In this document: positions 96-4,676 of the stretch, piece by piece
Position numbering within the stretch: the first letter of the stretch is position 1
Layout: every line of letters starts with the position of its first letter
Notes under the pieces: generated by a model
What the model saw: the letters and a program-made list of their open reading frames with translations, nothing else
The model's database searches: none
Told to the model about the DNA's origin: nothing
Program-made: the position numbers and the translations under genes
From: Escherichia coli
GTDB taxonomy: Bacteria > Pseudomonadota > Gammaproteobacteria > Enterobacterales > Enterobacteriaceae
Direction: 5' to 3' (one strand)
NCBI RefSeq assembly: GCF_003790525.1
Contig: NZ_CP033632.1
Length of the DNA stretch: 64,000 nt

Positions 96-1331
96 TTAGT
101 AGTGCGTTTTTTTCAATGGGAGATCTGCTTTGCGTTTTGAAATATCGTCCCGGAAGAATATCAGGAAGAATACGCTGACCACTGCGGCAACGCCTGCTGA
201 AACCAGCCAAAATGTTTCCCATTGCGGTAACGCTTGTGGGCCTTGTTCCGTCACAGTGTTGTTAAATATTTGCCCGCATACGGTAGAGGCAAATAGCAAA
301 CCGACGCCGTTCGAGACGATGAATCGTAAACTTTGGGCTTGCGCTTTAATCTCTGGCGCGGCTTTACGGTCAACATAAATGTCGCCCACGGTAAAGAAAA
401 AGTCCCAGCAAAATCCCTGCAACATCAGACCGATCAGCACAAACATCATGTTGGCATCCAGTGATGCATGAGCAAACAACAGGGTGCGGATGATCCAGCA
501 TACGGCACCCAACATGAGAGTAATTTTGAAGCCGGCTTTCAGTAAGAAAAACGAGAGCAGGAACATAAAAATGACTTCACAGGCTATGCCGACCTGCATC
601 ATTGACGCGGCGTTCTCGAATCCAAGCGCTTTTAAAAAGACTGGGATATAAGCGGAATAAGCTGTTTTAGGGATCATCAGGACAAAAATGCTGAGCATCA
701 AAACCGAGAAACTACGGTCCTTGAAGAGTGCCAGAGCGTCCAGACATAACAGATCGCGGAGTGTAAATACGCTACCTTTTGCTTTCGGTGGTGTGTGTGG
801 TAATGTAAAGCAGTAAAGGCCAAGCACGACACCGGAGGCTGATGCTATATACCAGGTGATGGTATTTCCGGAATAGCCCATTTCACCAATAATAAAACCG
901 ATGACCATAAAGCCAAATGTGCCGAACACACGAATAAAGGGGAAATATTTCACCCCGTTAATGTGGCTGAAACTGATACTGTTAGCCAGCGCAGTTGTTG
1001 GATAAAACAACAGACCGACTAGGAAGATCATGGTCAACGTCATACCCGTGTTTTGTGCCTCAATAAATTGTGGAACAAACAACAGTACACCAGCATTAAT
1101 TAAATGCAGGATTGCCATGACTTTTTGTGACGAGAAAAAACGGTCGGCGACCATACCAATAAAGAGTGGAGAAAGAATGGTCGCCAGACCAAGCAAGGCA
1201 TAAGATGAGCCAATAATGGTTGCCATACCATAGGTACTTAATACCAGTCCCATGGTCATATTCCAGGCACCCTGCATGAAATATTGTATGAACATCATAA
1301 CCAGCAGACGTGGGGTTTTATTCAGGTCCAT
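96..1331 (-). CDS. MFS nucleoside:H+ symporter-family permease (NupG/XapB-like)
   Basis: 411-aa hydrophobic ORF; motifs LDALALFKD and GFCWDFF...VDRKAAPEIKAQAQS parallel NupG-family sequences as recalled. Confidence 0.7.
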   Translation of the reverse strand: MDLNKTPRLLVMMFIQYFMQGAWNMTMGLVLSTYGMATIIGSSYALLGLATILSPLFIGMVADRFFSSQKVMAILHLINAGVLLFVPQFIEAQNTGMTLTMIFLVGLLFYPTTALANSISFSHINGVKYFPFIRVFGTFGFMVIGFIIGEMGYSGNTITWYIASASGVVLGLYCFTLPHTPPKAKGSVFTLRDLLCLDALALFKDRSFSVLMLSIFVLMIPKTAYSAYIPVFLKALGFENAASMMQVGIACEVIFMFLLSFFLLKAGFKITLMLGAVCWIIRTLLFAHASLDANMMFVLIGLMLQGFCWDFFFTVGDIYVDRKAAPEIKAQAQSLRFIVSNGVGLLFASTVCGQIFNNTVTEQGPQALPQWETFWLVSAGVAAVVSVFFLIFFRDDISKRKADLPLKKTHY

Positions 1332-1343
1332 ATTGCATATCCT

Positions 1344-2168
1344 TTATTGGTTGATACTCAGGTTAAGCCCATCCCAAGCGACAAGAATGTTCTCTTTATC
1401 GCATGCTGCTACTAGCTCATCGTGCAGGAGACCGCCGCTGTGTGAAATATGCGAGACGACAAGTTGACTTGTTTTCTTCAGGCAGTCCAGTTCCGCCAGT
1501 CTGTCCCTGGCAGCGAACACCGTTTCCAAACTCATATGGTTATTGGTACGATTTTCTCCATTAAAGCCGTAGGTACACTCCAGAACGGCCAGATCAATTT
1601 TTTTCCCTTCCAGCCACTGCCAGGTGAGCTCAGGAAACCAGCCAGAGTCATGACCGTAAAATATTGACTGGCCTTCTTTTTCGATAAACCAGGTATAACA
1701 AAGCTCCCATTTAGCATGGTTAGCCAGCAGCGGAGTTATCCGATAGCCACGGGTATCTACGGTGACGAAGGGTACCAGGCAATGAAAGGCAAAGCGCTCT
1801 GCGCTATAGCCCGGCAAAACCTCTGCCGCACCGTTAATCGCACGATCGTTACCAAAGATATTCAGCGGATGGGTAATCTCAAATCCGTAACCCTCCATTC
1901 GGCTGAAAAGATCGCCGACGTTGAAATGATCGGGATGAGTATGGGTAAACAGAAGCGACCTGATTTCAGTTGCATCCATGTCGTCGCGCAGCAGCTGTTG
2001 GCTAAATTCCGGCGCGACGTCAATCAACAGTTGATCATCAATAATCGCGGAAGAGTGTGTACGAATGTTTTTTCCCTTACGTATACGGGCTTGCTGACAG
2101 TGCTCACAACGACAAAAAGGATTGGGTATCCCTTCGGATGCCGCGGTTCCCAGAAAATGAATTTTCAT
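1344..2168 (-). CDS. MBL-fold metal-dependent hydrolase (PhnP-like phosphodiesterase family)
   Basis: 274 aa; metallo-beta-lactamase-fold motif THTHPDH; 13 bp upstream of permease on same strand (operon). Confidence 0.55.
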   Translation of the reverse strand: MKIHFLGTAASEGIPNPFCRCEHCQQARIRKGKNIRTHSSAIIDDQLLIDVAPEFSQQLLRDDMDATEIRSLLFTHTHPDHFNVGDLFSRMEGYGFEITHPLNIFGNDRAINGAAEVLPGYSAERFAFHCLVPFVTVDTRGYRITPLLANHAKWELCYTWFIEKEGQSIFYGHDSGWFPELTWQWLEGKKIDLAVLECTYGFNGENRTNNHMSLETVFAARDRLAELDCLKKTSQLVVSHISHSGGLLHDELVAACDKENILVAWDGLNLSINQ

Positions 2169-2501
2169 GTTTCCCTCTTACTCAAAACAGAGTGTTGTTT
2201 TTTGAAAAAAAATGTAATAAGACGTTATTGGAACGTGTCAATTATTATCTTGCAAACTCAAGCCAACAACGATCTTTTTCTTTAAAAGTGATCCTCTTCA
2301 AAGATTTAAAAATTTATATTTATTTTTCAATATATTGAAATTTTAACTCATGTGTATGAGTCGTGTGGTGTTGAGAAGTGGTTATAAGGATGTGTTGATA
2401 AAATACACTTTTTTATTTTGTAACGTTCAAATTATCTTGCTGAAGATAGTTTTCTGATGAGCGCAGTGCTAGCATAAAAGCATTAGGGGAGTGATGTAAA
2501 A

Positions 2502-4676
2502 ATGCCAACTATCAAAGACATAGCAAGAATTGCCGGTGTGTCGCATGGGACTGTCTCAAATGTGCTCAATGGCAGAGGAAATGTAAGCGTTGAGAAGATT
2601 GAAGCGGTTCAACGTGCGGCCCAAGAAGTTGGCTATCAGTTAAATGCGCAGGCTCAATCATTGAGAGCTAGCAAAAGTCAGGGAGTGGCCTTGATTCTGC
2701 CAGGCATCAATGCGGAACGTTACTATCAACTTTATCGGGGATTACACCAGGTCTTGCAACCTTCACTCTGCGAACCGATTGATCTTTACCTGACTAATGA
2801 TTTGCCTAATCTGGAACTGGATATTTTACAAACGCTGGCGGCAAAGTCTTACCAGGCTATTGTCACTGTGAGTTGCTTGGATAACAGCCAGCCCTATTAC
2901 GACATGCTCAGGCTCTCCCCGGAGAATGTGTTTTTTGCGTATCGTCAGCCCGCCAGTGCAGTTTGTTATTTTAGCCTTGACTACGTGACCGCAGGGGAAG
3001 AAGCTGCAAGGAGGGCACTGCAGCAGCACCCGGGTCATATTGGTGTTTTCTGTGAACCGCTGGAATTTTCCCACAGCGCGCGCTTTACTCAAGCGATACA
3101 AATGGTATGCCGAAAGTTAAGCCTGCACACAAAGCTTACAATTATACCCGCGCATGCCAGTGAAGTTAACACTGTCGCGTTTGAATTTTTCCAAGGGGTC
3201 ATACCCGATCTGTTTATTGTTCAGGACAGTGAGAAGACGCGCGCACTGACGCAGGCGGCTTGGTTTGGAAGTTCTCAGCCCTGCCCGCCGATAGTACAAC
3301 TGAGTGACAATCTTCCTGCATCTTTTGATGGAATCACCAGCTATCAGATGGATTATGCCCGCCTGGGAACAACTATTGCTGCATGTATTCGCCAACCCAA
3401 AAGTAAAAAGAAGCACCATATTCTGACGAATTGCGGTTTTTCTTGGAATGGACAATGCGCTCCGTCTCATGAGACCGAGACGACACTGAATATGTTAATT
3501 TTGCCCAGCCCTTCGACCGATGCGCTGAAGAAATTGTTACCCCACTTTTATCGTCAGACCGGCATTAAGGTTAATCTTGCGGTTTATCCGTATGATGAAG
3601 TTTTTGAAATTCTCTCTCATCTTCACTTGCACCCTTATTACGATTTACTGCGAATCGATATGGCGTGTTTTCCCTGGTTTGCAGAAAAAACATTATTACC
3701 GCTGGAATCGGTCTCCCCTGAGCTCCCGTTATTGCTGGATAACTTCTCTGAGCAACTTCAACAGTACTTCAGCCTGGTGAATGGGACTGCATGGGCAATT
3801 CCCTTTGATGCCAGTATGCAGCTTCTGTTTTATCGACGAGATCTGTTTGAAGATGCAACGATTAAACGGATGTTTTATGAATCCACAGGAAAAGAGTTAA
3901 CTCTACCAGAGAATTTCGCACAATTTGATGAGATTGCTACTTTCTTTAGTCAACGGCATCAGCCAAAAAATAAACAGCGTCCAATGGGAACTGCGGTAAC
4001 GTTGGGCAGTTCAGGACTTATTGCCACTGAGTACTTGCTGCGTTACTACGCGTTAGGTGGGCGATTGGTGCGTGAAGGCGAGCCGATACAACTTGATACT
4101 TCGCTTGCTGCCGTTGCACTCGAAGAATATCTACAACAGTTGCCTGTTGCCGTGAATATTGCCGGTGAGTGGTGGAACGATGCTGTTAAACAGTTTGAGT
4201 GTGGAAATCTCGCCATGCTGATTATGTATCTCAATTTGTTTAACGATGTTGCGCATACGACCATCGCTCCCACGATCGGCTATGCTCCCGTTCCAGGGCA
4301 GCTTCCACAATTGGGTGGTGGTTCTATTGGAATGTCTCGCTACAGTAAGAAGAAAAAACAGGTTGAGCAGTTTTTTCATTGGCTTTATTCCGATGAAATT
4401 TCGCGTCATCTGGTTCTGTTGGGGGGCAACAGCGCTTGGTCTGGAATATGTCACGATCAAAACGTTCTCAATCTCTACCCGTGGTTTAATTTACTGAATG
4501 AAAAAGGCATGAAGGGAATACGTGAGTCTCAGGGAAGTCAAGGTGAGCCTTTTAACCTGCGTCAGGCAGAGATTATCATTGGGCAAGGGGTGACGAATGC
4601 GATTAACGGCATTATGAACGTCAATCAGGCTGTGGAATATATCAATGCACGGATCAGAAACGAAACGGGGGCCTGA
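2502..4676 (+). CDS. LacI-family HTH regulator with sugar-binding core fused to a C-terminal SBP-like domain (no signal peptide)
   Basis: N-terminal IKDIARIAGVSHGTVSNVLNG HTH; 724 aa, about twice normal LacI length; divergent from permease operon across AT-rich intergenic region. Confidence 0.6.
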   Translation: MPTIKDIARIAGVSHGTVSNVLNGRGNVSVEKIEAVQRAAQEVGYQLNAQAQSLRASKSQGVALILPGINAERYYQLYRGLHQVLQPSLCEPIDLYLTNDLPNLELDILQTLAAKSYQAIVTVSCLDNSQPYYDMLRLSPENVFFAYRQPASAVCYFSLDYVTAGEEAARRALQQHPGHIGVFCEPLEFSHSARFTQAIQMVCRKLSLHTKLTIIPAHASEVNTVAFEFFQGVIPDLFIVQDSEKTRALTQAAWFGSSQPCPPIVQLSDNLPASFDGITSYQMDYARLGTTIAACIRQPKSKKKHHILTNCGFSWNGQCAPSHETETTLNMLILPSPSTDALKKLLPHFYRQTGIKVNLAVYPYDEVFEILSHLHLHPYYDLLRIDMACFPWFAEKTLLPLESVSPELPLLLDNFSEQLQQYFSLVNGTAWAIPFDASMQLLFYRRDLFEDATIKRMFYESTGKELTLPENFAQFDEIATFFSQRHQPKNKQRPMGTAVTLGSSGLIATEYLLRYYALGGRLVREGEPIQLDTSLAAVALEEYLQQLPVAVNIAGEWWNDAVKQFECGNLAMLIMYLNLFNDVAHTTIAPTIGYAPVPGQLPQLGGGSIGMSRYSKKKKQVEQFFHWLYSDEISRHLVLLGGNSAWSGICHDQNVLNLYPWFNLLNEKGMKGIRESQGSQGEPFNLRQAEIIIGQGVTNAINGIMNVNQAVEYINARIRNETGA

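What the first reader, a model, noticed from the sequence alone, without database searches (positions are those of the whole stretch)
96..4676. Double-length LacI-family regulator fused to an ABC-type solute-binding-like domain, controlling a nucleoside-permease/MBL-hydrolase operon
Seen in sequence: the 724-aa ORF has a LacI HTH and sugar-binding core, then about 390 further residues resembling a periplasmic solute-binding protein but without signal peptide. It is divergent from a NupG-like permease and a PhnP-like MBL-fold hydrolase, with two AACGTT-centred candidate operators in the intergenic region (about 2228-2254 and 2410-2434). Inference: a cytoplasmic two-sensor regulator for an uncharacterised nucleoside or sugar-phosphate utilisation module.
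Basis: partly seen in the sequence, partly recalled or inferred. Interest (0 to 1): 0.4.

Follow-up and report, generated by a model that had tools for sequence, protein, structure and literature searches.

The report
LacI repressor with extra solute-binding sensor
The 724-residue gene is a real, widely conserved but unstudied repressor (a LacI-type DNA-binding protein with a transporter-type binding domain on its end) that most likely switches on a small mobile operon for importing and cleaving a phosphodiester nutrient.

Summary
ORF 2502-4676 encodes a LacI HTH, a very diverged LacI-type core and a signal-less CUT1/MalE-type solute-binding domain. It is divergent from a PhnP-like MBL hydrolase and an NHS-family (YegT-like) MFS permease. 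A third operon gene, mgtC, is cut by the window start.

It is not a frameshift artefact. The full-length architecture recurs in about 400 50%-identity clusters and 225 species genomes, from Enterobacterales to Clostridia.

The two proposed operators are real by phylogenetic footprinting: 2227-2242 and 2417-2432, consensus ATTGGAACGTTCCAAT. The same 16-mer precedes the target operons across the family, and in Clostridia its TTGACA half is the -35 box of a canonical promoter.

Distant family members control GDPD phosphodiesterases with AfuABC-like or CUT1 ABC importers, plus MgtC and IMPase/HAD phosphatases. The regulon theme is therefore organophosphate-diester uptake and cleavage, not nucleoside use as such.

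The LacI core is nearly unconstrained (2 of 255 positions at least 90% conserved). The SBP domain keeps 26 conserved positions, many of them Arg, Asp, Glu or Trp. That argues for the SBP domain as the sensor rather than for two sensors.

Substrate and inducer remain unknown. In E. coli the module is rare IS-flanked plasmid cargo (45 of 5426 genomes).

The parts
1..63 (-). First 21 codons of an MgtC/SapB-family membrane protein (237 aa in full). It is the third gene of the operon and is cut by the window start.
   Evidence: The identical plasmid p1-H9 annotates MgtC/SapB at L001 11350-12063, which ends at window position 63. Pfam MgtC E 9.8e-35, with a weak ACT-like C-terminus. It is co-located in 22 clade-A loci and 7 clade-B loci.
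96..1331 (-). NHS-family MFS H+ symporter (411 aa). It is YegT-like and its substrate is unknown.
   Evidence: Pfam Nuc_H_symport E 1.5e-78. TIGR00889 scores 262.7, below the 446.1 cutoff. Closest solved chains are YegT 8zoj (E 2e-59) and NupG (E 4e-45). The TM10 GxxxD motif is kept as GFCWD at residue 306.
1344..2168 (-). PhnP-like MBL-fold metallo-phosphodiesterase (274 aa), first gene of the operon.
   Evidence: Lactamase_B_2 E 2.5e-13. TIGR03307 PhnP scores 82.5, below the 272 cutoff. PhnP 3g1p E 1.3e-14 over residues 4-243, with the CxCxxC, HxHxDH and later His/Asp/His/His positions aligned.
2169..2501 (.). Divergent control region (35-39% GC).
2227..2242 (.). Operator O1, ATTGGAACGTGTCAAT. 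Read towards the MBL gene it is ATTGACACGTTCCAAT. Its TTGACA (2241 to 2236, minus strand) is the likely -35 box of the operon promoter.
   Evidence: PWM score 21.3. Invariant in the E. coli/Klebsiella/Pluralibacter alignment. The identical 16-mer lies upstream of the target operons in Pragia, Budvicia, Paenibacillus, Bacillus, Halobacillus and Clostridia. In Clostridia the arrangement is TTGACA-N17-TATAAT-like box, then RBS and ATG.
2417..2432 (.). Operator O2, TTTGTAACGTTCAAAT. It lies 70-85 bp upstream of the regulator ATG and 190 bp from O1.
   Evidence: PWM score 19.7. Invariant block in alignment A2. A second site is present wherever the regulator is divergent from the operon, and only one site where it is not, as in Gilliamella and the Bacillus co-directional operons.
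2286..2302 (.). Conserved block AAGTGATCCTCTTCAAA, a candidate CRP-like site (GTGA-N6-TCAA). Not established.
   Evidence: Two mismatches to TGTGA-N6-TCACA. By my own estimate (no tool run), about 0.14 such matches are expected by chance in 333 bp. It is nevertheless conserved across five Enterobacteriaceae loci.
2466..2475 (+). Invariant GTGCTAGCAT, a candidate extended -10 (TGnTAGCAT) of the regulator's own promoter.
   Evidence: Invariant in alignment A2. The promoter assignment is inference only; the promoter scan did not call it.
2502..2672 (+). Regulator residues 1-57: LacI-type HTH plus hinge helix, with A51, L54 and R55 conserved.
   Evidence: Pfam PF00356 E 1.7e-13. 23 of 57 positions are at least 90% conserved family-wide.
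2673..3443 (+). Regulator residues 58-314: a diverged LacI/GalR-type (type I PBP) core, probably the dimer scaffold.
   Evidence: Profile homology to the CcpA, Cra and FruR cores. AF2 alpha/beta pattern. Only P67 and E105 are at least 90% conserved.
3480..4676 (+). Regulator residues 327-724 plus stop: a cytoplasmic CUT1/MalE-type (SBP_bac_1) domain, the proposed effector sensor.
   Evidence: Pfam SBP_bac_1 E 1.7e-17 and SBP_bac_8 E 9.6e-11. Foldseek hits to MalE3, SmoF, TMBP and a dinucleotide-binding protein, with TM-score about 0.8 on the target. 26 positions are at least 90% conserved, including D381, R384, R445, D447, R456, E460, N578, G605-G607, W627 and W661.

Best explanation
What it is. 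The 724-aa protein is a cytoplasmic LacI/GalR-type repressor. Its DNA-binding head and diverged dimeric core carry an additional C-terminal, signal-less, transporter-type (CUT1/MalE-like) solute-binding domain.

How it represses.
- Without inducer it binds two 16-bp CG-centred operators: O1 at 2227-2242 and O2 at 2417-2432.
- O1 covers the TTGACA -35 box of the promoter of the divergent operon mbl-mfs-mgtC, so it blocks RNA polymerase.
- O2, 190 bp away and upstream of the regulator gene, gives autoregulation, loop stabilisation, or both.

How it is induced. The conserved sensor is the SBP domain, not the LacI core. Ligand-driven closure of that domain is passed through the core to the hinge and HTH and releases the DNA.

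What the operon does. It imports an organophosphate diester or cyclic phosphate that carries a sugar, polyol or ribosyl group, using the YegT-like MFS symporter. It then cleaves that compound in the cytoplasm with the PhnP-like MBL phosphodiesterase. MgtC plays an unknown accessory role.

Shown versus inferred.
- Shown: the architecture, its conservation, the operator motif and its position, and the gene linkage.
- Inferred: repression by occlusion in E. coli, the SBP domain as sensor, and the class of substrate. The exact substrate is unknown.
For: Architecture is real and old.
- Full-length relatives of about 720-740 aa go down to 29% identity. There are 413 representatives with E<1e-30 and 225 GTDB species, in both Enterobacterales and Bacillota.

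LacI membership of the N-terminal half.
-.

Operators.
- There are only two matches in the 64 kb, and both are in the intergenic region.
- Both are invariant in the Enterobacteriaceae alignment.
- The same motif lies upstream of the target operons in 38 of 41 clade-B loci that were not used to build the matrix.
- The motif has a fixed orientation relative to the operon, and in Clostridia its TTGACA half is followed by N17, a TATAAT-like box, an RBS and the ATG.

Gene linkage.
- MBL and MFS lie next to the regulator in 37 of 79 species loci, most of them with MgtC.

Regulon theme.
- The other 41 loci carry GDPD+DUF4996 (30 loci) with an AfuA/P5PA/2-AEP-type ABC importer (21-24 loci) or a CUT1 ABC importer (7-9 loci), plus MgtC (7), IMPase (5) and HAD (3).
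- A second kind of MBL replaces GDPD in 3 loci.
- A 46%-identical paralogue of the window's MBL sits with the same AfuABC-like importer in Paenibacillus.
- In Anaerobiospirillum the arrangement is PGM_PMM-MBL-NHS permease beside a GDPD.

Sensor assignment.
- The core has 2 of 255 positions at least 90% conserved and the SBP domain 26 of 398, rich in Arg, Asp, Glu and Trp. The same residues are kept in both clades.
- Domain-wise identity to Klebsiella is HTH 96-98%, core 75%, SBP 89-90%; to Proteus it is 77%, 34%, 59%.

Precedent.
- SgrR/DsvR is a cytoplasmic transcription factor with an ABC-type SBP domain.
Against: - No experiment exists on any family member. The only paper found merely lists the pneumococcal homologue.
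- In the window the -10 element downstream of TTGACA is poor: TATTAC at N16 or TACATT at N19. The promoter scan did not call it.
- O2 lies about 57 bp upstream of the inferred start of the regulator transcript, so it is not a classical occlusion site.
- The LacI core keeps a few family-typical polar residues (Y74, T98, E105, R148, D160), so a second pocket is not excluded.
- I could not map the conserved SBP residues onto 3D coordinates. The MalE profile alignment that places them near ligand-contact segments has low probability.
- The MBL/GDPD equivalence is an argument from context. The MBL scores far below the PhnP equivalog cutoff.
- An anionic phosphodiester is not a typical substrate for an NHS-type symporter.
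Confidence: 0.55

Rival explanations
1. Two-sensor regulator. Both the LacI core pocket and the C-terminal SBP domain bind different small molecules, for example the substrate and a product. Their signals are integrated at the operator.
For: - Both PBP-type modules are structurally complete in the AF2 model.
- The core keeps Y74, T98/S, E105, R148 and D160 at 75-95% across the family. Some of these sit at LacI-family motif positions that contact effectors in other members (my own knowledge of PurR and LacI).
Against: - Only 2 of 255 core positions are at least 90% conserved, against 26 of 398 in the SBP domain.
- The core evolves fastest at every divergence level.
- The window's core alone no longer matches any Peripla_BP Pfam model.
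Confidence: 0.2
2. The SBP-like domain is not a small-molecule sensor. It is an oligomerisation or partner-binding module. One version is a replacement for the LacI tetramerisation helix, joining two dimers to loop O1 and O2. The other is a docking site for the transporter or MgtC. Induction would then occur through the core or through protein-protein contact.
For: - The domain is attached exactly where LacI carries its tetramerisation helix (my own knowledge).
- Paired operators recur at about 98-120 bp in Bacillota and about 180-204 bp in Enterobacterales.
- MgtC co-occurs across both clades.
Against: - The conserved residues are charged or aromatic (D381, R384, D436, R445, R456, E460, W557/W558, N578, W627, W661). 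They are shared by regulators paired with MFS, two ABC types or TTT transporters, and with or without MgtC. This fits a common ligand better than a variable partner.
- Loci with a single operator keep the domain.
Confidence: 0.12
3. The operon is a plain nucleoside (or nucleoside-analogue) uptake and salvage module. The permease imports a nucleoside, and the MBL hydrolase acts on a bond other than a phosphodiester.
For: - Pfam Nuc_H_symport E 1.5e-78, with NupG and YegT as the closest structures.
Against: - The permease scores below the TIGR00889 cutoff.
- Its closest relative, YegT, gave no significant ITC signal with the standard nucleosides and lacks NupG's uridine-contact residues.
- The MBL is specifically PhnP-like, with the Cys motif.
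- In relatives the same regulator and operator control GDPD enzymes with organophosphate-type importers and phosphatases.
Confidence: 0.1
4. Artefact: a frameshift or assembly error has fused a normal LacI gene to a separate secreted SBP gene.
For: None found. NCBI's name 'extracellular solute-binding protein' could suggest it.
Against: - The sequence is 100% identical in many independent complete plasmids.
- The same continuous architecture occurs in hundreds of divergent homologues from two phyla.
- There is no signal peptide or hydrophobic stretch at the junction.
- No split version was seen among the hits.
Confidence: 0.01

Closest known systems
Canonical LacI/GalR repressors, especially Cra/FruR and CcpA
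   Same: N-terminal LacI HTH, a hinge helix with a conserved Leu, and a type I PBP core. The operator is a CG-centred palindrome of the TGAAAC|GTTTCA type. The gene is divergent and probably autoregulated, with two operators. The best sequence matches are CcpA, Cra and the fructose/sucrose repressor subfamily.
   Different: It is twice the length. About 400 extra residues form a second, type II PBP domain at the C-terminus. The core is nearly unconstrained and falls below the Pfam thresholds. All NCBIfam equivalog scores are far below cutoff.
SgrR / DsvR (winged-helix HTH plus SBP_bac_5 domain)
   Same: A cytoplasmic transcription factor that uses an ABC-transporter-type solute-binding domain without a signal peptide as its presumed sensor. 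SgrR is linked to sugar-phosphate physiology.
   Different: The DNA-binding domain is different and the SBP class is different (cluster C / SBP_bac_5 against CUT1 / SBP_bac_1). SgrR has no intervening LacI core. SgrR is an activator, whereas this protein is predicted to be a repressor.
Secreted CUT1 ABC-transporter binding proteins (MalE3, TMBP, SmoF, UgpB-type)
   Same: The fold and the Pfam family of residues 327-724. Foldseek E is 1e-18 to 1e-21, with TM-score about 0.8 on the target.
   Different: There is no signal peptide or lipobox. The domain is fused to a repressor and has no cognate permease or ATPase in the window. Identity is only 16-18%.
Streptococcus pneumoniae Tn7090 orf1-orf7 (PMC10383233)
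   Same: The same regulator family (orf7, 675 aa, LacI HTH plus SBP) with a GDPD, an SBP, an ABC ATPase, a fused permease, MgtC and a HAD. That module is also IS-flanked and mobile.
   Different: It is the GDPD/ABC version of the module rather than the MBL/MFS version. Its authors only annotated it and guessed Mg2+ uptake or adhesion. No function was tested.
PhnP (phosphoribosyl 1,2-cyclic phosphate phosphodiesterase) and the Ugp/GlpQ or Agrobacterium acc phosphodiester systems
   Same: PhnP-like fold, Cys motif and metal ligands. The logic is to import a phosphodiester, cleave it, then dephosphorylate it. The AccF (GDPD) / AccG (IMPase) pairing is recalled from my own knowledge.
   Different: The gene is not in a phn operon and scores below the PhnP equivalog cutoff. 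The importer is an MFS. The regulator family is unrelated to PhnF, GlpR or AccR.

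Membership tests
LacI/GalR transcription factor family | N-terminal LacI-type HTH (PF00356) | tested here: met
   Residues 3-46, E 1.7e-13, 50.6 bits against a cutoff of 27.
LacI/GalR transcription factor family | Hinge helix with a Leu lever, and a palindromic operator with a central CG | tested here: met
   A51, L54 and R55 are at least 90% conserved. The operator consensus is ATTGGAAC|GTTCCAAT, centred on CG. DNA binding itself was not tested.
LacI/GalR transcription factor family | Type I periplasmic-binding-protein core (Peripla_BP_1/3/4) | tested here: met
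   The window sequence alone gives Pfam E 0.11. The family profile aligns to CcpA over 3-252 (E 1e-25) and to core-only chains 3o74, 1sxg and 2iks (E 1e-8 to 1e-11). Some homologues hit PF00532 or PF13407. The domain is homologous but strongly diverged.
LacI/GalR transcription factor family | Effector pocket in the cleft of the core | tested here: inconclusive
   Only P67 and E105 are at least 90% conserved among 255 core positions. A few polar residues are kept at 75-95%.
LacI/GalR transcription factor family | Two-module architecture of about 330-360 aa | tested here: not met
   The protein is 724 aa, with a third module of 398 aa.
ABC-transporter solute-binding proteins (SBP_bac_1, CUT1) | Type II PBP fold of the MalE class | tested here: met
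   PF01547 E 1.7e-17. Foldseek hit to MalE3 at E 3.7e-21, TM-score 0.82 on the target.
ABC-transporter solute-binding proteins (SBP_bac_1, CUT1) | Export signal (signal peptide or lipobox) and extracytoplasmic location | tested here: not met
   The N-terminus is an HTH. The junction 315-326 is hydrophilic, and no 19-residue window exceeds a Kyte-Doolittle mean of 1.36.
ABC-transporter solute-binding proteins (SBP_bac_1, CUT1) | Encoded with cognate permease and ATPase genes | tested here: not met
   The window has an MFS permease only. In clade B the ABC systems carry their own separate SBP, only 23-24% identical to the regulator's domain.
PhnP (TIGR03307) | MBL fold with HxHxDH, the downstream His/Asp ligands and the N-terminal CxCxxC site | tested here: met
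   Alignment to 3g1p over residues 4-243, E 1.3e-14.
PhnP (TIGR03307) | Equivalog score, and location in a C-P lyase (phn) operon | tested here: not met
   82.5 bits against a cutoff of 272.25. There are no phn genes nearby.
Nucleoside:H+ symporter (NHS) family | Pfam Nuc_H_symport and the TM10 GxxxD proton site | tested here: met
   E 1.5e-78. GFCWD at residue 306 aligns to the YegT GVSYD motif containing D315.
Nucleoside:H+ symporter (NHS) family | Nucleoside specificity (TIGR00889 cutoff, NupG contact residues) | tested here: not met
   262.7 bits against a cutoff of 446.1. The protein is closer to YegT than to NupG. YegT showed no significant binding of the standard nucleosides. The contact residues were not mapped one by one.

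The most novel reading that the evidence does not exclude
The LacI-SBP proteins form an unrecognised class of one-component regulators. A transporter-type CUT1 binding domain has taken over effector sensing from a degenerating LacI core. With one universal operator that overlaps the -35 box, they govern a widespread, horizontally mobile catabolic module for an as yet unidentified sugar, polyol or ribosyl phosphodiester or cyclic phosphate. The module has interchangeable phosphodiesterases (MBL or GDPD) and importers (MFS, AfuABC-like, CUT1 or TTT). MgtC is a recurrent component, which would link that family to organophosphate handling.
Probability: 0.4. Interest if true: 0.65.

Novelty: new variant of a known kind. 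Interest (0 to 1): 0.5.

Why it matters
- It would add a distinct allosteric design to the best-studied repressor family: two PBP-type modules in series, with the outer one sensing. That is relevant to LacI-based biosensor engineering.
- It corrects a systematic mis-annotation. NCBI calls these cytoplasmic regulators 'extracellular solute-binding protein'.
- It defines a testable regulon and operator for about 400 sequence clusters in gut and insect-gut Enterobacterales and in Bacillota.
- It flags a mobile nutrient-scavenging module. In E. coli that module rides on phage-plasmid-like MDR plasmids, and in pneumococcus on a composite transposon.
- It gives a new genomic handle on the unexplained MgtC family.

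Tried and rejected
- Frameshift or fusion artefact: rejected.
- The 586 E. coli hits of the first megablast came from the IS256 fragment. Restricting the query to 96-4676 gives 45 genomes.
- Origin of the sensor domain from the neighbouring transporter SBP: only 23-24% identity, so uninformative.
- Mapping the conserved SBP residues onto MalE ligand contacts by hhalign: probability 0.7%, so not usable as evidence.
- Pho box and cre-like scans of the window's intergenic region found nothing. A CRP-like site is weak by score but conserved.
- The sigma-70 scan did not call a promoter at O1.
- Literature searches for the architecture, for DUF4996 and for the gene combination found no functional study.
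- Anti-Pycsar/Apyc1 reading of the MBL: only 'weak' precomputed hits. The chromosomal permease/regulator context argues for metabolism, not anti-defence.
- More distant MBL paralogue contexts (Cohnella sugar operon; Testudinibacter next to gal genes) did not identify the substrate.
- Substrate identity remains unresolved.

Full report
**Observation**

The ORF table confirms three genes:
- a 724-aa ORF at 2502-4676(+);
- a 274-aa ORF at 1344-2168(-);
- a 411-aa ORF at 96-1331(-).

They are separated by a 333-bp AT-rich intergenic region.

Pfam places a LacI HTH at residues 3-46 and SBP_bac_1/SBP_bac_8 at about 338-633 of the long protein. It assigns Lactamase_B_2 to the second protein and Nuc_H_symport to the third.

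NCBIfam gives only sub-threshold hits:
- fructose/sucrose repressor, Cra and CcpA for the regulator;
- PhnP (82.5 against 272) for the hydrolase;
- nucleoside permease (262.7 against 446.1) for the transporter.

The window is identical to a set of E. coli plasmids. In those records the gene after the permease is an MgtC/SapB family protein, whose first 21 codons are window 1-63(-). The operon is therefore mbl-mfs-mgtC, and the window cuts it.

**Is the long ORF real?**

Yes.
- Word-indexed and exhaustive protein searches find full-length relatives of 700-750 aa, matched end to end, down to 29% identity. There are 413 representatives of 50%-identity clusters with E<1e-30.
- A scan of one genome per species finds 225 species, 79 of them fetched here. 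They include the Klebsiella oxytoca group (83-85%), Serratia, Proteus, Providencia, Gilliamella, Orbus, Frischella, Erwinia, Paenibacillus, Bacillus, Clostridium, Lachnospiraceae, Hungatella and Romboutsia.
- No split version appeared.
- The AF2 model (pLDDT 85.3) has HTH 1-57, an alpha/beta core 60-314, a low-confidence linker 315-325 and an SBP domain 327-724.
- There is no hydrophobic segment anywhere, and none at the junction. The whole protein is therefore cytoplasmic, and NCBI's name 'extracellular solute-binding protein' is misleading.
- The middle domain no longer matches the Peripla_BP Pfam models on its own (E 0.11). A family profile does align to CcpA through residue 252 (E 1e-25) and to core-only crystal constructs of FruR and CcpA.
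- The C-terminal domain matches MalE3, the sulfoquinovosyl-glycerol binder SmoF, TMBP and a Thermus dinucleotide binder, with TM-score about 0.8 on the target and 16-18% identity.

**Operators**

By eye and by repeat search, the intergenic region holds a direct repeat: 2228-2253 and 2418-2440.

Scanning orthologous intergenic regions for CG-centred palindromes gave the same element in Klebsiella, Raoultella, Proteus, Providencia, Pragia, Intestinirhabdus, Paenibacillus and Bacillus.

A matrix built from 15 clade-A sites (consensus ATTGGAACGTTCCAAT) was then run on the window and on all loci.
- It scores only 2227-2242 (21.3) and 2417-2432 (19.7) highly in the 64-kb window.
- It finds sites next to the regulator or its target operon in almost every locus. 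This includes 38 of 41 Bacillota loci that were not used for training.

A mismatch search gives 2 hits in the window, both in the intergenic region, against 0.40 expected in the whole window.

Both sites are invariant blocks in an E. coli/Klebsiella/Pluralibacter alignment that is otherwise 79% identical.

The commonest form is asymmetric and has a fixed orientation. Read in the direction of the regulated operon it is ATTGACACGTTCCAAT. In Clostridia the TTGACA half is followed by 17 bp, a TATAAT-like hexamer (TATACT, TATGAT or TATAAT), an RBS and the start codon. There the operator covers the -35 box and the first part of the spacer, which is a classical occlusion geometry.

In the window the same TTGACA (2241 to 2236, minus strand) is followed by weaker -10 candidates. 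Occlusion is therefore inferred here, not shown.

Loci where the regulator is not divergent from the operon have one site. These are Gilliamella and the Bacillus co-directional operons. Divergent loci have two sites, spaced about 98-120 bp in Bacillota and about 180-204 bp in Enterobacterales.

**What does it regulate?**

Regulators at least 39% identical to the window's sit next to the MBL and the NHS-type permease in 37 of 79 species loci. MgtC is present in 22 of those. In Paenibacillus and Bacillus the gene order is MgtC-MBL-MFS.

The remaining 41 loci (31-37% identity, Bacillota) lack these genes by BLAST. Clustering their neighbours and annotating representatives gave the following:
- a GDPD+DUF4996 phosphodiesterase in 30 loci;
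- an ABC importer with an SBP_bac_6/8 protein, an ATPase and a fused 570-aa permease in 21-24 loci;
- or a CUT1 importer in 7-9 loci;
- MgtC in 7 loci, an inositol-monophosphatase-family protein in 5 and a HAD phosphatase in 3.

The first importer's SBP is related to AfuA (sugar phosphates), P5PA (pyridoxal phosphate) and a 2-aminoethylphosphonate binder. The enzyme is related to solved GDPDs.

Three loci without GDPD carry another MBL. Two use a TctABC transporter.

Conversely, 46-48%-identical paralogues of the window's MBL sit with the same AfuABC-like importer in Paenibacillus, under a GntR/PBP1 regulator. In Anaerobiospirillum the arrangement is PGM_PMM-MBL-NHS permease beside a GDPD.

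The MBL aligns with PhnP, including the CxCxxC site and all metal ligands.

The permease is closer to YegT than to NupG. The YegT paper reports that ITC with the standard nucleosides gave no significant result, and that NupG's uridine contacts are not conserved in YegT.

Taken together, the conserved theme is import plus cytoplasmic cleavage of an organophosphate diester or cyclic phosphate, sometimes followed by dephosphorylation. The enzyme fold and the transporter class are interchangeable. This is an inference from context, and the substrate is not identified.

The cre-like site just after the -10 box in the Paenibacillus and Bacillus promoters suggests the module is treated there as a carbon-catabolic operon.

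**Which domain senses?**

In an alignment of 137 family representatives, positions at least 90% conserved number:

| Region | Conserved positions |
|---|---|
| HTH | 23 of 57 |
| LacI core | 2 of 255 (P67, E105) |
| SBP domain | 26 of 398 |

The conserved SBP positions include D381, R384, R445, D447, R456, E460, N578, G605-G607, W627 and W661. The window's protein has the consensus residue at every one of them.

The same residues are kept in MBL-linked and GDPD-linked regulators. This argues for one common ligand class.

Domain-wise identity shows the core evolving fastest at every distance:

| Compared with | HTH | Core | SBP |
|---|---|---|---|
| Klebsiella | 96-98% | 75% | 89-90% |
| Proteus | 77% | 34% | 59% |

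I therefore favour the SBP domain as the sensor and the core as a dimerising, signal-transmitting scaffold. I could not map the residues in 3D, and the MalE profile alignment is too weak to use. A second pocket in the core remains possible, because Y74, T98, R148 and D160 are moderately conserved.

SgrR/DsvR is a precedent for a cytoplasmic transcription factor with an ABC-type SBP domain.

**Comparison with the known, and novelty**

The protein passes the LacI-family tests for the HTH, the hinge, the operator type and, at profile level, the core. It fails the family's two-module architecture. It passes the fold test for SBP_bac_1 but fails the export and transporter-linkage tests.

No functional study was found. 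The only paper that mentions a member is the description of pneumococcal transposon Tn7090. That paper lists GDPD, SBP, ABC, MgtC, HAD and a 675-aa 'LacI HTH plus SBP' ORF, and guesses a role in Mg2+ uptake or adhesion. The LacI regulon census did not contain the search terms solute-binding, fusion or fused.

I rate this a new variant of a known kind.

**Context in E. coli**

The module is in 45 of 5426 complete E. coli genomes, 43 of them on plasmids.

It is flanked by IS256 and IS3 remnants, and further out by a group II intron and a CdiA-type fragment. The backbone carries RepB, ParB, DnaB, Dam, tRNA genes and TerB, with a multidrug-resistance region further along the window. It is therefore mobile cargo.

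**Verdict**

- The mechanism is a LacI-type repressor with an SBP-domain sensor controlling a phosphodiester-utilisation operon, at moderate confidence.
- The substrate, the inducer and the role of MgtC are open.

Noticed in passing
window 1-63 (-); L001 11350-12063: An MgtC/SapB-family gene with a weak ACT-like C-terminus is the third gene of the operon. It recurs with both the MBL/MFS and the GDPD/ABC versions of the module, including pneumococcal Tn7090. Its role in a phosphodiester module is unexplained.
   Followed up: partly
window 4724-7000: An IS256-family transposase remnant (internal stop) and a frameshifted IS3 element lie directly after the regulator's stop codon. Upstream of the window, in the identical plasmid, are a VENN pre-toxin fragment, IS3 pieces and a group II intron (ltrA). 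The module is IS-bracketed cargo.
   Followed up: partly
window 2286-2302 and 2466-2475: Besides the two operators, the Enterobacteriaceae intergenic alignment has other invariant blocks. These are a CRP-like AAGTGATCCnCTTCAAA, CAACGATCTTTT (2268-2279), GATAGTTT (2445-2452) and GTGCTAGCAT (a possible extended -10 for the regulator).
   Followed up: partly
L004 7760, L006 6723 and 13931, L026 5759, L027 5760, L028 3892, L042 5762: The Paenibacillus and Bacillus versions of the operon promoter carry a cre-like AGAAAGCGTTAACA just downstream of the -10 box. This suggests CcpA catabolite control of the module in Bacillota.
   Followed up: partly
L006 13966-14068 and genes 10455-12791: Bacillus sp. 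ISL-4 has a second pair of the same operators. They lie upstream of a class-B acid phosphatase and a second MFS_1 transporter, so the regulon can extend beyond the core module.
   Followed up: no
window 14542-28394: A phage-plasmid-like backbone. It carries ParB, an AAA ATPase, a GIY-YIG nuclease, RepB, RdgC, a Dam-family methyltransferase, TerB and DnaB. It also has three tRNA genes: Asn 23712-23787, Thr 23790-23865, and a CAT-anticodon tRNA at 25670-25745 that ARAGORN calls Met and RefSeq calls Ile.
   Followed up: partly
window 20196-21395: A 399-aa ORF of the same length as the IS91-family transposase ORF at 57970-59169. It sits where the related plasmid pGF66.2-B has uninterrupted rdgC and Dam genes. 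The following ORF (21719-23038, 439 aa) is shorter than the 673-aa Dam homologue, so the methyltransferase may be interrupted.
   Followed up: no
window ~41000-64000: A multidrug-resistance and second-replicon region, 99.9% identical over the roughly 53% of this stretch that matches other E. coli plasmids. Features under that match are IS26 copies, the DqlB type I toxin, ParA/ParG, two replication initiators, RelE/Phd, IS91, IS50R, aph(3')-IIa and mphR(A)-mrx(A)-mph(A).
   Followed up: no
window ~7377-7532 and 7726-8844: A Hok/Gef family toxin gene and an IS421 (IS4-like) transposase lie between the module and the plasmid maintenance genes.
   Followed up: no
L007-L009 versus the window: Between the E. 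coli plasmid and the Klebsiella oxytoca-group chromosomes, the structural genes are 95-98% (MBL, MFS) and 89-95% (MgtC) identical in protein. The regulator is only 83-85% identical, and its divergence is concentrated in the LacI core (75%).
   Followed up: partly
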